Assembly: GCA_965287045.1 (NCBI GenBank) | Contig: OZ336872.1 | Coordinates: 32,550,001-32,614,000 of the forward strand | DNA: 64,000 nucleotides | Origin: Carcharhinus amblyrhynchos | Lineage: Eukaryota | Direction of reading: 5' to 3' | Part shown: positions 36,001 to 39,000 of the stretch, piece after piece | Numbering within the stretch: position 1 is the stretch's first letter | Layout of the letters: every line of letters begins with the position of its first letter | Program-made: the position numbers

Positions 36001-39000
36001 TAATTATCACAATACCAATAAAACAGGTAAACAGACTGATGCACAGTAATTGTATCTCACTGAGAGCAAAATCTAGGCACTGGAAGAAGTATTGCATAAA
36101 TAAATTTGTACCGACATCACATATATAGGGGCAATTCACCTAGCCCACTATGCTACTCCAGCAGCACAACGCGTTGGGAGACATCAGCTGTTTCACTGGC
36201 TTCCCACTGGGCGCCACAATCTCCGTATATCTCTGAGCTATGAGTTCCAGAGTAATCAGCTCCATGCCAGAAATTGGCACAAAGCCGCTTATCAAATGGA
36301 AATCACAATTTAAAATTAATTGACGGGCCTGGGACTGAAGTCTCCGGGCCCGCTAGCATCTGGCCCCCTCCCACCCACCAGGAGTAGTTCACTACAGCAG
36401 GATTTATAACTGCTCCCCCTAGTGGGGAACAGGCAACCGATCCCGCTGGAGTGAAGGGAGGCTAATGAGGCCACCCCAGGAAGTTGGGAGGTAAGAGGGG
36501 TGCCCCTGGGACAGCACCACGTAGCACTGCCCAAGAGGCACCTTGGCACGGCTCACCAGGCAATGTCAAGGGCTAGAGCCACAGGGAGGTGGGACCTACT
36601 GGGGGGCGGGGGGGAGGGGTCCTGCTACCACTCTGTACAGGGATTGCAGGCAAATGGAGGGAGGACAGATATTAAGGCTGGCCACCTGTGTCCGTGAGGG
36701 GAGGAGAGGGTGGATCGGGACTGCCAGAGAATCATTAGGGGTGGGGGAGGGAAGTTGGAGATCAGAGCTGGTCAGGGGTCGGGGGGAGGGGAAAGTCAGG
36801 GCTTGTTTGGGGAAGTCCTGGAGTAAGAAGTCTCACAACACCAGGATAAAGTCCAACAAATTTATTTGATAATAAACCCACAAGCTTTCGGGGTTTGCCC
36901 CTTCGTCAGGTGAGTCTCACCTGACGAAGGGGCAAACCCCGAAAGCTTGCAGGTTTACTATCAAATAAACTTGTTGAATAAACTTGTTGGACTTTAGCCT
37001 GGTGTTATGAGACTTCTTACTGTGTTTACCCCAGTCCAACACTGGCATCTCCACATCATGAAGTCCTGGAGGCCAGGAATCAAGGTGTGGGGAGTTCACA
37101 AGCCCGGCAATGGGGAGTTGTGGGGATGGCCAGCAATTGGGAGGCCACGCTGAAAGATCGGCGCATGTGTAGTGACCCGGTCAGCGCTATGCTGGCGGCC
37201 TCTCGGGCAGGAATAGGCCCCACCCTCAGATTTCCGGAGGGAATCACATGAGGGCACTCTGTGATTCACACAGCGTTGGAGATTCACTCTGGAAATCACA
37301 CAGGAGAAAGCTAGCAGCATTTACTCCCATTTTCTCGCAAATTAGGAACTTTGAATCTTTTTGGGAGAATCCCAGCCATAGTCTTCCAATATAGTTCCTG
37401 GGTGCAAATTTATTTATTTCAAGCAGAAATTGCAATCATGTGGAAGCAGACATCCACTTACACCAATCTGAGGTCCCTATCTGCTTCACGAAGACAACCT
37501 TCATTCCTGTGTCAAAAAGCCAGGCAGCATGCCTTAATGACTATTTTCCAGTGGCTCTCTGACATCAATCATTATGAAGTGCTTAGAAAGATTAGTCATG
37601 ACACAAATCAATTCTTGCCTCCCAGATTGCCTGGATCCACGACAGTTCGCCTGTCGCCACAACAGGTTCACAGCAGACGCCATCTCTCTACCCTCAACCC
37701 TGCAGCATGTAGATAACAAAGTCACTTACGTCAGGCTCATATTTAATGACTGCAGTTCAGCCTTCAACACCATTATTCCATCAAAACATATCTCCAAACT
37801 CCGTGGCCAGGGGCTCAGCTTCTCCTTATGCAACTGTATCCTAGACTTCCTAACCCACAGACTGCAATCAGTAAGGATAGGGAAAAACACCTCCTCCATG
37901 ATCATTCTCAACACCTGTGCCCCACAAGGCTGTGTCCTCAGCCCCTCACTATACTTCTTATAGACCCATGACTGTGTGGCCACATTCCCCTCCAACGCGA
38001 TCTTCATGTTTGCTTATGACACCACTGTGGTGAGTCGGATCTTAAACAATGATGAGATGGAGTACAGGAAAGAGATAGAGGATCTGGTGAAATGGAAGGA
38101 CAACAATAATCTCTTCCTCAATACCAACAATGTGAAGGAGATAGTCATCAACTTCAGGAAATGTAGTGGAAGACATGCCCCTGTCTACATCGTAAAAAGT
38201 CTGACAACACCAGGTTTAAGTCCAACCAATTTATTTGATAGTAAACTCACTAGCTTTCCTAGTGAGCTAGTGAGTTTACTATCAAATAAATCGGTTGGAC
38301 TTAAACCTGGTGCTGTCAGACTTTTTACTGTGTTTACCCCAGTCCAACACCGGCATATCCACATCCTGTCTACATCAACAGGGATGAAGCGGAAACTGTC
38401 CAGAATTTCAAGTTCCTCAGTATTCAGATCACCAACAACCTTTCCTGGTCCTCCACGCCAACACTATAGTTAAGTAAGCCCACCAGCACCTCTACTTTCT
38501 CAGATGGCTAAGGAAATTTGGCGTGTCTGCTATGATTCCCACCAACGTCTACAGATGCACCACAGAAAGTATTCTTTCTGCTTGTGTCACAGCTTGGTAT
38601 GGCTCCTGCTCTGTCTAAGACTGCAAGAAACGTGAACAAAGTCCAGTCCATCACATAACCAGCTCCCATCCACTGATGCTGTCTACACTTCCTCTGGCCT
38701 CGGAAAAGCATCCAGCATAATTAAGGACCCCACGCACCTCAGACATACTCTCTTTCGTCGGGAAAAAGATACAAAAGTCTGACTTCATGTACCAACCGAA
38801 CAGTTTCTCCTCTGCTGCCATCAGACTTTTGAATGGACCTACCTTGTATTAAATTGGTCTTTCTCTACATTCCAGCTATGAATGTAATACAACATTCTGC
38901 ACTCTCTCCTTTCCTTCTCCATGTACAGTACGCTTTGTCTGCAAAGCATGCAAGAAACAATACTTTTCCCTGTATACTAATACATGTGACAATAATAAAT

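What the first reader, a model, noticed from the sequence alone, without database searches (positions are those of the whole stretch)
36824..37059. Second fold-back copy: stem II changes sequence but keeps pairing
Seen: 12-bp TSD, centre at 36915, stem II gggg-caaa-cccc. The other copies have gaggg-taac-ccctc (60275), gaggg-agtc-ccctc (45911-45924, minus) and ggagc-agt-gctc(a) (~4040, minus). The core CUGA(C/U)GA-a and GAAAGCU stay nearly fixed. Inference: structure-preserving variation among subfamilies indicates selection on a functional RNA fold, and at least two or three subfamilies have been active.
Basis: partly seen in the sequence, partly recalled or inferred. Interest (0 to 1): 0.75.

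Follow-up and report, generated by a model that had tools for sequence, protein, structure and literature searches.

The report
Truncated Penelope-like retroelement carrying hammerhead motif
This 236-base fold-back is a dead, head-to-head truncated insertion of a Penelope-like retrotransposon that carries that family's already described minimal hammerhead ribozyme motif, so it is an ordinary repeat and not a new RNA gene.

Summary
Window 36824-37059 is a fold-back (arms 36824-36914 and 36916-37020, centre 36915) with a one-sided 39-nt tail. An exact 12-bp duplication flanks it. Each arm carries CUGACGA-A-GGGG/CAAA/CCCC-GAAAGCUU.

It is one of six related insertions in the window. Their shared anatomy is the published signature of Penelope-like elements (PLEs):
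- fixed 3' ends facing outward
- variable 5' truncation at the centre
- an inverted partner copy
- a 33-40-nt tail at one end only
- 12-15-bp target duplications

The RNA motif meets the published signature of the PLE minimal type-I hammerhead: an unpaired base after A9, a G10.1-C11.1 pair, and a palindromic AGCU in place of helix III.

Stem II differs between three subfamilies yet stays paired (13 of 15 cognate against 15 of 30 non-cognate Watson-Crick pairs). Three variants cannot give significance, though. An automated pair count found no covariation, and helix I does not covary.

In this copy the ribozyme is locked in a -145 kcal/mol hairpin. Any selection therefore acted on the source elements, not here. 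No PLE reverse transcriptase lies in the window. This is a known kind of element and of low interest.

The parts
36812..36823 (.). Left copy of the 12-bp target-site duplication GAAGTCCTGGAG
   Evidence: exact repeat found only at 36812 and 37060
36824..36914 (-). c1 left arm: a 5'-truncated element copy read on the minus strand. Its 3' end (..CTTCTTA) abuts the left TSD.
   Evidence: 86/91 identical to the right arm, plus a 13-nt indel
36874..36917 (-). Minimal hammerhead on the minus strand: CUGACGA 36909-36903, bulged A, stem II GGGG/CCCC with loop CAAA, GAAAGCUU ending at 36882. Predicted cleavage lies between 36882 and 36881. Helix I 3' strand is 36881-36874. Only 5 nt of the helix I 5' strand (36914-36910) come from the arm itself.
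   Evidence: (71.5 bits)
36915..36915 (.). Single central base between the two arms (the head-to-head junction)
36916..37020 (+). c1 right arm: a 5'-truncated element copy on the plus strand, ending ..CTTCTTAC (first reverse-transcription start). It contains a 13-nt tandem duplication at 36964-36989.
36913..36956 (+). Minimal hammerhead on the plus strand: CUGACGA 36921-36927 through GAAAGCUU ending at 36948. Core and stem II are intact; helix I is broken by two substitutions (GCAGG).
   Evidence: 66.3 bits
37021..37059 (+). One-sided 39-nt 'tail' (TGTGTTTACC..CCACATCAT). It contains AGUCCAAC, which is complementary to GUUGGACU in the arm.
   Evidence: tails 74-94% alike between copies
37060..37071 (.). 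Right copy of the 12-bp target-site duplication
60101..60356 (-). c2: young fold-back copy with a 40-nt tail on the left, arms 107/107 identical, and centre at 60248. Hammerheads at 60201-60229(-) and 60267-60295(+), stem II GAGGG/CCCUC. TSD CTCCTTGATATT at 60089 and 60357.
45844..45949 (-). c3: single sense arm with a hammerhead (45904-45932, loop AGUC). Its 5' junction carries a 10-nt exact reverse complement of the tail end. 13-bp TSD at 45831 and 45950.
3938..4141 (-). c4: old fold-back copy with a tail. Arms match at 61/72 plus 12 gap columns. The hammerhead has decayed (GAAGGCUU, G.A at 10.1/11.1). No clear TSD.
   Evidence: (53.3 bits)
38192..38364 (+). c5: fold-back copy truncated near the predicted cleavage site, so it has no CUGAYGA core. 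It reads GCUA, so position 17 is A. 36-nt tail on the right. TSD CCTGTCTACATC at 38180 and 38365.
12146..12338 (.). c6: complex copy. On the left, a reverse-complemented tail (33 nt) plus 14 nt of arm end. On the right, about 20 nt of arm end. About 130 nt of other sequence lies between them. 15-bp TSD at 12131 and 12339.

Best explanation
The feature is a dead-on-arrival insertion of a Penelope-like retroelement (PLE), or of a short element mobilised by PLE enzymes.

**What it consists of.** Two 5'-truncated copies of the element's 3' region are joined head to head. Their 3' ends face the flanking DNA. A 39-nt tail sits on one side only, and a 12-bp target duplication flanks the whole unit. 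The conserved block in each arm is the PLE minimal type-I hammerhead ribozyme:
- CUGANGA
- one unpaired A
- helix II of 4-5 bp
- GAAA
- a palindromic G-C in place of helix III
- U16.1 and U17
- a 5-bp helix I

**Likely mechanism (inferred from the anatomy and from published PLE biochemistry).**
1. The PLE RT/GIY-YIG protein cuts both target strands about 12-15 bp apart.
2. Each 3'-OH primes reverse transcription inside the template RNA. One starts at the arm end (..CUUYUUAC). The other starts 33-40 nt further downstream, at the tail end.
3. Both cDNAs run toward the RNA 5' end and are joined at the centre.

The hammerhead would cleave after GAAAGCUU only in source transcripts, where two ribozyme copies can form helix III in trans. 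In the fold-back itself it is sequestered in a long hairpin.

**Shown:** the anatomy, the duplications, the motif, and the variation between subfamilies.
**Inferred:** PLE enzymology, two-strand priming, ribozyme activity, and selection on source copies.
For: **Architecture**
- Six related insertions were found, 1168 bp or 1.8% of the window.
- 5 of 6 have exact TSDs of 12, 12, 13, 12 and 15 bp.
- Outer ends are fixed, while the inner (5') ends vary: 5 nt and 18 nt upstream of CUGAYGA in c1 and c2, near the cleavage site in c5, and a 10-nt stub in c3.
- In 6 of 6 copies one border is the arm end and the other is the tail end. Tails are 33-40 nt.
- There is no poly(A).

**Motif**
- A min-HHR descriptor gave 5 hits against 0.02 expected (100 simulations, maximum 2), all with the extra base after A9.
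- Across the 6 arms: unpaired A in 6/6, G10.1-C11.1 in 5/6, GCUU in 6/6, GAAA in 5/6.
- Position 17 is U, or A in c5, and never G.
- The isolated 52-nt and 54-nt stretches fold as helix I plus helix II (-16.8 kcal/mol, z -2.49; -12.5 kcal/mol, z -1.79).
- A domain-swapped double hammerhead using AGCU/AGCU costs only about 2.5 kcal/mol more than two monomers.

**Stem II**
- Cognate strands form 13/15 Watson-Crick pairs, non-cognate combinations 15/30.

**Literature**
- Cervera & de la Pena 2014 (PMC4209133, text read) describe PLE min-HHRs. They list exactly these features: a nucleotide between 9 and 10.1, G10.1-C11.1, palindromic 15.2-16.2, and families full of compensatory changes. They also report dual motifs 100-700 bp apart on opposite strands.
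- Craig et al. 2021 (PMC8557442, passages) describe 5' truncation, an adjacent inverted 5'-truncated copy, and a 30-40-bp tail often at one end only.
- Frangieh et al. 2024 (PMC11167929, main text) report that the protein cuts and extends both strands. They place the tail between two internal RT start sites. They found that uncleaved RNA is the main template.
Against: - No PLE-type protein is in the window. Of 214 stop-to-stop ORFs of at least 68 aa, only 4 hit RVT_1 and none hit GIY-YIG. All 4 are LINE-like. The link to PLEs therefore rests on architecture and motif alone.
- Rfam finds no hammerhead family at gathering score, nor at E up to 10.
- Helix II is 4-5 bp. That is shorter than the 6-8 bp described for Schistosoma and Drosophila PLE ribozymes.
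- Target sites are not notably AT-rich (42-67% A+T), unlike the ATT preference reported for the Anolis element.
- Unlike that element, no ORF starts at helix II: all three frames close between the ribozyme and the arm end.
- The formal pair count showed no covariation, and helix I does not covary.
- c1 and c2 are symmetric to a single base. Two independent truncations would not produce that unless both cDNAs ran off the same RNA 5' end.
Confidence: 0.85

Rival explanations
1. The source is not a truncated autonomous PLE. It is a dedicated short non-autonomous family (retrozyme-like or SINE-like) that borrows PLE enzymes. This is nested within the main reading and differs only in what the master copy is.
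For: - The region from the ribozyme to the tail end is non-coding in all three frames in c1, c2 and c4. In the Anolis PLE, by contrast, the ORF starts at helix II.
- No PLE ORF lies in 64 kb that holds six short copies.
- Li, Clavereau & Pollet 2026 (preprint 10.64898/2026.07.22.740005; abstract and first part of Results read) report that vertebrate non-LTR retrozymes derive from PLE terminal repeats.
Against: - No direct tandem copies, the hallmark of retrozymes, occur in the window.
- The hammerhead is the minimal PLE type, not the canonical type I with loop-loop contacts reported for retrozymes.
- Heavy 5' truncation alone explains short copies.
Confidence: 0.35
2. The fold-back arose by snap-back. 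A single cDNA folded on itself and primed its own second strand. The endonuclease then resolved the product at the arm end. Under this reading there were not two cDNAs primed from the two target strands.
For: - c1 and c2 are palindromic up to a single central base, with perfect half-lengths of 34 and 108 nt.
- Craig et al. 2021 attribute the tail to EN-mediated resolution of the intermediate.
Against: - A 1-nt spacer is too small for a hairpin loop at the moment of priming.
- c3 carries only a 10-nt tail stub opposite a 90-nt arm. c5 and c6 have asymmetric or compound junctions. These fit two separately primed cDNAs.
- Extension of both strands has been shown in vitro.
Confidence: 0.25
3. The element is a fold-back DNA transposon or MITE whose terminal inverted repeats happen to contain a hammerhead-like string.
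For: Long inverted arms and flanking direct duplications.
Against: - TSD length varies between 12, 13 and 15 bp.
- The inner ends of the arms differ in every copy, while the outer ends are fixed.
- One copy has a single arm.
- An asymmetric tail is present in 6 of 6 copies.
- The chance of a min-HHR match is about 0.02 per 64 kb on both strands.
Confidence: 0.03
4. The feature is a host hairpin RNA gene, such as a miRNA or siRNA precursor, conserved for its long stem.
For: - Very stable hairpin: -145.3 kcal/mol, z -20.5, with 0 of 200 shuffles as good.
- Weak hits to plant and animal miRNA hairpin models.
Against: - All miRNA hits fall far below gathering score (71 against 200 bits; 27 against 56 bits).
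- The hits are symmetric on both strands, as any palindrome gives.
- The TSD and the related copies show that it is an insertion.
- The arms decay with age.
Confidence: 0.03

Closest known systems
Minimal type-I hammerhead ribozymes (min-HHR) of Penelope-like elements (Cervera & de la Pena 2014, PMC4209133)
   Same: - Core boxes CUGANGA and GAAA.
- An unpaired nucleotide between A9 and 10.1.
- A G10.1-C11.1 pair.
- No loop 3, with a palindromic 15.2-16.2 so that helix III can only form between two copies.
- A short helix I (5 bp).
- Several sequence families per genome with compensatory changes.
- Mostly solitary or inverted motifs in truncated copies.
   Different: - Helix II is 4-5 bp here, against the 6-8 bp described for Schistosoma and Drosophila.
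- Position 17 is U (or A), not the commonest C.
- No flanking RT/GIY-YIG ORF is seen in this window.
- Activity is untested.
PLE insertion architecture and 'tail' (Craig et al. 2021, PMC8557442; Frangieh et al. 2024, PMC11167929)
   Same: - 5' truncation.
- An inverted 5'-truncated partner copy.
- A 33-40-nt tail at one end only.
- Two reverse-transcription start points about 40 nt apart, downstream of the hammerhead.
- Arm 5' ends that do not coincide with the ribozyme cleavage site, consistent with an uncleaved template.
   Different: - Copies here are extremely short (106-256 bp).
- Target sites are not clearly AT-rich.
- The stretch between the ribozyme and the start sites is non-coding, whereas in the Anolis element it is the start of the ORF.
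Animal non-LTR retrozymes (Cervera & de la Pena 2020, PMC7229834; Li et al. 2026 preprint 10.64898/2026.07.22.740005)
   Same: Short, non-coding, hammerhead-bearing repeats that co-occur with PLEs and are thought to use their enzymes.
   Different: Retrozymes are direct tandem arrays of 170-400-bp units with canonical type-I hammerheads, and they are expressed as circular RNAs. Here there are no tandem arrays, the ribozyme is the minimal type, and the copies are inverted pairs.
Canonical type-I hammerhead families of Rfam (family names recalled, not shown by any search)
   Same: The same catalytic core and the same order of helices.
   Different: There is no closed helix III. No Rfam hammerhead model matched, even at E up to 10.
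LINE-1 twin priming (recalled from general knowledge, no paper read here)
   Same: Both target strands prime reverse transcription, which gives an inverted arrangement with a TSD.
   Different: - Twin priming inverts different parts of one RNA and ends in poly(A).
- Here both arms copy the same 3' region.
- The two start points differ by a fixed 33-40 nt.
- There is no poly(A).

Membership tests
PLE minimal hammerhead (min-HHR) | Core boxes C3-U4-G5-A6-N7-G8-A9 and G12-A13-A14 plus A15.1 | tested here: met
   CUGAYGA is present in 6 of 6 arms and GAAA in 5 of 6. The old copy c4 reads GAAG.
PLE minimal hammerhead (min-HHR) | [quoted passage not shown] | tested here: met
   An A is present in 6 of 6 arms. 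All 5 descriptor hits needed the 1-nt bulge.
PLE minimal hammerhead (min-HHR) | G10.1-C11.1 pair closing helix II | tested here: met
   Present in 5 of 6 arms. c4 has G.A.
PLE minimal hammerhead (min-HHR) | No loop 3; palindromic 15.2-16.2; U16.1; position 17 not G | tested here: met
   A-G-C-U-U in 6 of 6 arms, and A-G-C-U-A in c5. A double hammerhead through AGCU/AGCU evaluates to -31.1 and -22.3 kcal/mol.
PLE minimal hammerhead (min-HHR) | Short helix I (4-5 bp) enclosing the motif | tested here: met
   Source-derived helix I is 5 bp in c1(-), 5 bp in c2 (both arms) and 4 bp in c4. It is broken in c1(+) and cut off in c3.
PLE minimal hammerhead (min-HHR) | Compensatory changes between families in helix II | tested here: inconclusive
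   The register-based table shows double changes at 3 of 5 pairs. Cognate strands give 13/15 Watson-Crick pairs against 15/30 for non-cognate. The count on the model-fitted alignment gave 0 double changes and no excess pairing. Only 3 variants are available.
PLE minimal hammerhead (min-HHR) | Lies in the terminal repeat of an element encoding a telomerase-like RT and a GIY-YIG endonuclease | tested here: inconclusive
   No such ORF is in the window: 214 ORFs were scanned, giving 4 LINE-like RVT_1 hits and no GIY-YIG. The host genome outside the window could not be searched.
PLE minimal hammerhead (min-HHR) | Self-cleavage, as a dimer or with protein help | not testable with these tools
   Needs in vitro transcription of tandem constructs.
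PLE insertion unit | 5' truncation with an adjacent inverted 5'-truncated copy | tested here: met
   4 of 6 copies are fold-backs with different inner ends (c1, c2, c4, c5). c3 has a 10-nt inverted stub, and c6 is compound.
PLE insertion unit | 30-40-bp tail at one end of the unit only | tested here: met
   Tails are 39, 40, 36, 39 and 33 nt in c1, c2, c5, c4 and c6, and a 10-nt stub in c3. In 6 of 6 the opposite border is the arm end.
Canonical type-I hammerhead (Rfam models) | Match to a curated hammerhead covariance model | tested here: not met
   0 matches at gathering score over the window. No hammerhead family is among the 14 matches at E up to 10 in 36750-37130.
Non-LTR retrozyme | Direct tandem repeats of a 170-400-bp unit, each with a hammerhead | tested here: not met
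   No direct tandem of the unit appears in BLAST or TRF output.
Fold-back DNA transposon / MITE | Constant terminal inverted repeats, fixed TSD length, symmetric ends | tested here: not met
   TSDs are 12-15 bp, the tail is one-sided, the inner ends vary, and one copy has a single arm.
miRNA precursor families (MIR841, mir-208 and others) | Score at or above the family's gathering score | tested here: not met
   71 against 200 bits and 27.2 against 56.4 bits. The hits appear on both strands, as expected for any palindrome.

The most novel reading that the evidence does not exclude
The six insertions may preserve an in vivo rule of PLE integration that the in vitro work has not resolved. The two target strands always prime at two different internal sites of the template: the arm end on one side, and 33-40 nt further on the other (6 of 6 here). 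The two cDNAs can also stop at exactly the same template base and be joined with a single extra nucleotide (c1, c2). That would point to a concerted reaction by a dimeric RT/endonuclease on a template with a defined 5' end just upstream of the hammerhead. The conserved arm-tail stem (GUUGGACU/AGUCCAAC) could be the landmark that sets the two start sites.

A side consequence is that every such event plants a perfect long hairpin (up to 107 bp) that could feed host small-RNA silencing of the active elements.
Probability: 0.25. Interest if true: 0.45.

Novelty: new member of a known kind. Interest (0 to 1): 0.2.

Why it matters
As it stands, the value is in annotation. A striking hairpin with a ribozyme-like core is explained as a truncated Penelope-like insertion, so it should be masked as a repeat and not pursued as a new structured RNA.

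The copies do have some use as natural records of PLE integration. They show fixed outer ends, a one-sided tail in 6 of 6 copies, single-base symmetric junctions, and arm ends that never coincide with the ribozyme cleavage site. These points agree with, and slightly extend, the 2024 in vitro picture of two internal reverse-transcription start sites and an uncleaved template.

A genome-wide census of such stubs would be a cheap way to test models of how this poorly understood retroelement class integrates.

Tried and rejected
- **Rfam, whole window at gathering score:** nothing found.
- **Rfam, 36750-37130 at E up to 10:** only hairpin look-alikes (miRNA, snoRNA and sRNA models), all far below their cut-offs. 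Rejected as palindrome artefacts.
- **Own covariance model R1, searched with filters off:** only the six known hammerhead arms (53-73 bits) and the c5 junction (19 and 18 bits). The other 7 of 15 listed matches have E of 0.75 or more. No further ribozyme copies were found.
- **Formal pair counting on the model-fitted alignment A4:** no signal. The alignment drops pair 10.2/11.2 and mis-registers c1 and c4, so I fell back on a register-based table and a cognate versus non-cognate comparison. Both are fitted to the structure and rest on 3 variants.
- **First dimer evaluation:** failed because the structure as written was crossed. It was rewritten as a domain-swapped dimer.
- **Search for a PLE protein:** Pfam on 214 ORFs, PDB sequence search and pairwise comparison found only LINE-type RT fragments.
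- **ESM Atlas look-up for host context:** returned an error saying the service was closed. It was not repeated.
- **tRNA scan and tandem repeat scan:** nothing related to the element.
- **TSD for c4:** none convincing.
- **Stability of the 3' arm-tail region:** not significant on its own (z -0.1 to -0.8).
- **Not attempted:**
  - Genome contigs, because it holds only bacteria and archaea
  - the phage, plasmid and E. coli collections, because they are irrelevant to an animal repeat
  - structure or complex prediction, because no protein is at issue
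Full report
**What is at the coordinates**

Window 36824-37059 consists of two inverted arms, 36824-36914 and 36916-37020, around a single central base at 36915. A 39-nt stretch follows (37021-37059) that has no inverted partner. The whole unit is flanked by an exact 12-bp direct repeat, GAAGTCCTGGAG, at 36812-36823 and 37060-37071. That string occurs nowhere else in the window. The palindrome is perfect for 34 nt on each side of the centre. Overall the arms match at 86 of 91 aligned positions, plus a 13-nt tandem duplication in the right arm at 36964-36989. 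Each arm, read outward from the centre, carries CUGACGA-A-GGGG-CAAA-CCCC-GAAAGCUU.

**The family in the window**

BLAST of the copies against the window finds six loci, which I call c1 to c6.

| Copy | Coordinates | Form | Tail | TSD |
|---|---|---|---|---|
| c1 | 36824-37059 | fold-back | 39 nt, right | 12 bp |
| c2 | 60101-60356 | fold-back, arms 107/107 identical | 40 nt, left | 12 bp at 60089 and 60357 |
| c3 | 45844-45949 (-) | single arm | 10-nt stub only | 13 bp |
| c4 | about 3938-4141 (-) | old fold-back, arms 61/72 plus 12 gap columns | 39 nt | none clear |
| c5 | 38192-38364 | fold-back cut near the ribozyme cleavage site, no CUGAYGA | 36 nt | 12 bp |
| c6 | 12146-12338 | compound | 33 nt | 15 bp |

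Together the copies make up 1168 bp, or 1.8% of the window.

The outer ends are constant. One border always ends ..CTTYTTAC(T), which I call the arm end. The other always ends near ..CCACATCAT, the tail end, 33-40 nt further along the same template. This holds in 6 of 6 copies. In c3 the second border is only a 10-nt exact reverse complement of the tail end, joined to the sense arm.

The inner ends differ in every copy. They lie 5 nt upstream of CUGAYGA in c1 and 18 nt upstream in c2. In c5 they lie about 8 and 3 nt upstream of the predicted cleavage site. None has a poly(A) tract.

Fixed 3' ends, variable 5' ends and target duplications of 12-15 bp indicate retrotransposition with 5' truncation. 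They do not fit a DNA transposon.

**The RNA motif**

A descriptor for the minimal hammerhead was run on both strands. It required CUGANGA, an optional extra base, helix II of at least 4 bp, GAAA, a 15.2/16.2 pair, U16.1 and H17. It gave 5 hits, all in c1, c2 and c3, against 0.02 expected (100 first-order Markov simulations, maximum 2). These hits descend from one family, so they count as one observation rather than five. Still, a chance match in a 100-nt repeat is very unlikely.

Across the six arms that carry the block (c1 both arms, c2 both arms, c3, c4 sense arm), one search shows:
- the extra A after A9 in 6 of 6
- G10.1-C11.1 in 5 of 6
- A-G-C-U-U after GAA in 6 of 6
- GAAA in 5 of 6 (c4 reads GAAG)
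- N7 as C in five arms and U in one

In c5, position 17 is A instead of U. Both are allowed at that position of a hammerhead, whereas G is not; that rule is established knowledge and was not tested here.

A covariance model built from the six arms, run without filters, found only these arms (53-73 bits) and the c5 junction (19 and 18 bits). The remaining 7 of 15 listed matches have E of 0.75 or more.

The isolated 52-nt and 54-nt stretches fold into helix I plus helix II with an open three-way centre:
- -16.8 kcal/mol, z -2.49, with 4 of 200 shuffles as good
- -12.5 kcal/mol, z -1.79, with 13 of 200 shuffles as good

One correction. Only 5 nt of the helix I 5' strand belong to each c1 arm. The three extra pairs of the minus-strand copy come from the centre base and the opposite arm.

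**Does stem II covary?**

Numbering from the base of helix II, the four copies read as follows:
- c1: G-C, G-C, G-C, G-C, then the loop
- c2 and c3: G-C, A-U, G-C, G-C, G-C
- c4: G.A, G-C, A-U, G-C, C-G

So three of five positions show changes on both sides that keep the pair. Loop 2 differs in all four independent copies: CAAA, UAAC, AGUC and AGU.

Pairing each 5' strand with its own 3' strand gives 13 of 15 Watson-Crick pairs. Pairing it with the 3' strand of another variant gives 15 of 30, or 19 of 30 if G.U pairs are counted.

- The register-based comparison is fitted to the structure.
- It rests on three variants, and its cells are not independent.
- The tool's own count on the model-fitted alignment A4 gave 0 pairs with a double change, and 69.0% of cells paired against 70.8% in shuffles. 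That alignment drops the 10.2/11.2 pair and mis-registers c1 and c4.
- Helix I shows no covariation at all (cognate 14/15, non-cognate 28/30).
- The core is identical at 16 of 16 positions between c1 and c2, while the downstream arm is 84% identical. That is suggestive, not significant.

**Folding in context**

The whole unit folds into one hairpin of -145.3 kcal/mol. Shuffles average -51.3 kcal/mol, giving z -20.5, and 0 of 200 shuffles do as well. A transcript of either strand contains one sense ribozyme and its perfect antisense, so the hammerhead cannot form in this copy. Any constraint on the motif must therefore have acted on the source elements. The copies in the window decay with age: arm identity is 107/107, 63/67, 86/91 and 61/72.

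In a source transcript with two ribozymes, a domain-swapped double hammerhead could form, with helix III made by AGCU against AGCU. It evaluates to -31.1 kcal/mol (c1 type) and -22.3 kcal/mol (c2 type). That is within about 2.5 kcal/mol of two separate monomers. The dimer is therefore feasible but not favoured.

**Context**

Of 214 stop-to-stop ORFs of at least 68 aa, four match RVT_1 and none matches a GIY-YIG domain.
- The longest fragment, 4378-5706, is closest to LINE-1 ORF2p and R2 proteins among solved structures.
- The other three fragments align to it, although two of them found no solved structure on their own.

No Penelope-type protein is therefore present in the window. Rfam has no match at gathering score. 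Around the finding it reports only sub-threshold hairpin look-alikes. No tRNA genes were found, and no tandem arrays of the unit.

**Comparison with the literature**

- **Cervera & de la Pena 2014** (PMC4209133; parts 1-2 of 4 read). They describe minimal hammerheads in the terminal repeats of Penelope-like elements. These occur in thousands of mostly solitary copies in fishes, coelacanth, amphibians and reptiles, and none were found in mammals. They list the nucleotide between 9 and 10.1, the G10.1-C11.1 pair, the palindromic 15.2-16.2 and families 'full of covariations' as emergent features. They also report dual motifs 100-700 bp apart on opposite strands.
- **Craig et al. 2021** (PMC8557442; passages read). 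They describe heavy 5' truncation, an adjacent inverted 5'-truncated copy, and a 30-40-bp tail often at one end only.
- **Frangieh et al. 2024** (PMC11167929; abstract and whole main text read). Their findings for an Anolis PLE protein are:
  - It cuts and extends both target strands.
  - Reverse transcription starts at two internal sites of the RNA, and the tail is the stretch between them.
  - The hammerhead is protein-assisted.
  - Uncleaved RNA is the main template.
- **Cervera & de la Pena 2020** (PMC7229834; passages) and **Li et al. 2026** (preprint; abstract and first part of Results). They link vertebrate hammerhead repeats to PLEs.

The finding matches these descriptions feature by feature. 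It differs in four ways:
- Helix II is shorter (4-5 bp).
- The stretch between the ribozyme and the start sites is non-coding.
- Target sites are not AT-rich (42-67% A+T).
- No PLE ORF lies nearby.

**Mechanism**

The anatomy described above is shown directly. The rest is inferred:
1. A PLE RT/endonuclease nicks both strands 12-15 bp apart.
2. One 3'-OH primes at the arm end and the other at the tail end.
3. Both cDNAs copy the same 3' region toward the RNA 5' end.
4. They are joined head to head.

The single-base symmetry of c1 and c2 fits two cDNAs running off the same RNA 5' end, followed by an end-to-end template jump. It also fits snap-back self-priming, which I rate lower because c3, c5 and c6 are asymmetric. 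No arm 5' end lies at the predicted cleavage site after GAAAGCUU. The templates were therefore not cut at this ribozyme, which agrees with the in vitro result.

A conserved pairing of GUUGGACU in the arm with AGUCCAAC in the tail brackets the first start site. It appears in 4 of 4 tail-bearing copies that were folded, and c4 keeps it through two G.U pairs. On energy alone it is not significant (z -0.1 to -0.8).

**Novelty and limits**

The kind of element is already described. These particular subfamilies may or may not be in repeat libraries, which I could not consult.
- The only open genome collection holds prokaryotes, so no copies from outside the window were examined.
- Paper supplements were not opened.
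- The window contains no N.
- I do not take the window for human. No tool assigned a taxon, and the cited papers report this class of motif as absent from mammals. From recall alone, similar repeats are abundant in cartilaginous fishes; this was not tested.

Noticed in passing
window 38192-38364 (TSD at 38180-38191 and 38365-38376): A fold-back copy (c5) whose arms stop about 8 and 3 nt upstream of the predicted ribozyme cleavage site, so it lacks the CUGAYGA core. It has an 8-nt duplication (CTAGTGAG) at the junction and reads GCUA, so position 17 is A. It sits inside a LINE-like open frame (37964-38470), next to an RVT_1 fragment at 37541-37960.
   Followed up: partly
window 12146-12338 (TSD at 12131-12145 and 12339-12353): A compound copy (c6). 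On the left is a reverse-complemented tail plus 14 nt of arm end. Next comes a second, forward tail-like stretch, then about 70 nt of unrelated sequence. On the right is about 20 nt of arm end. It looks like several template switches in one insertion.
   Followed up: partly
arms and tails of c1, c2, c4 and c5, for example window 36986-36993 with 37033-37040: GUUGGACU in the arm is complementary to AGUCCAAC in the tail, and the pairing brackets the first reverse-transcription start. It is kept in 4 of 4 tail-bearing copies folded, in c4 through two G.U pairs. The fold energies are not significant on their own.
   Followed up: partly
alignment A2, for example window 36964-36969 and 60304-60309: AATAAA is invariant in 7 of 8 aligned arms (AGTAAA in c4), about 45 nt upstream of the arm end. 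It may be a polyadenylation signal of the source element, or it may be coincidence.
   Followed up: no
window 4378-5706(+), 37541-37960(+), 48299-48817(+), 58637-58849(-): Four LINE-type reverse transcriptase fragments. The longest is a 443-aa open frame with an RVT_1 hit at E 5.8e-29, closest to LINE-1 ORF2p and R2 among solved structures. None is telomerase-like or linked to a GIY-YIG domain.
   Followed up: partly
window 57999-58414 and 36580-36810: G-rich degenerate tandem repeats (periods 117, 34 and 43) containing GGGGGAGGG and CCAGATCATTCTCTGGTGG-like units. Similar G-rich sequence lies just upstream of the c1 insertion site.
   Followed up: no
window 36964-36989: An exact 13-nt tandem duplication (AATAAACTTGTTG twice) in the right arm of c1 only. 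It either arose after insertion or is a reverse-transcription slip.
   Followed up: no
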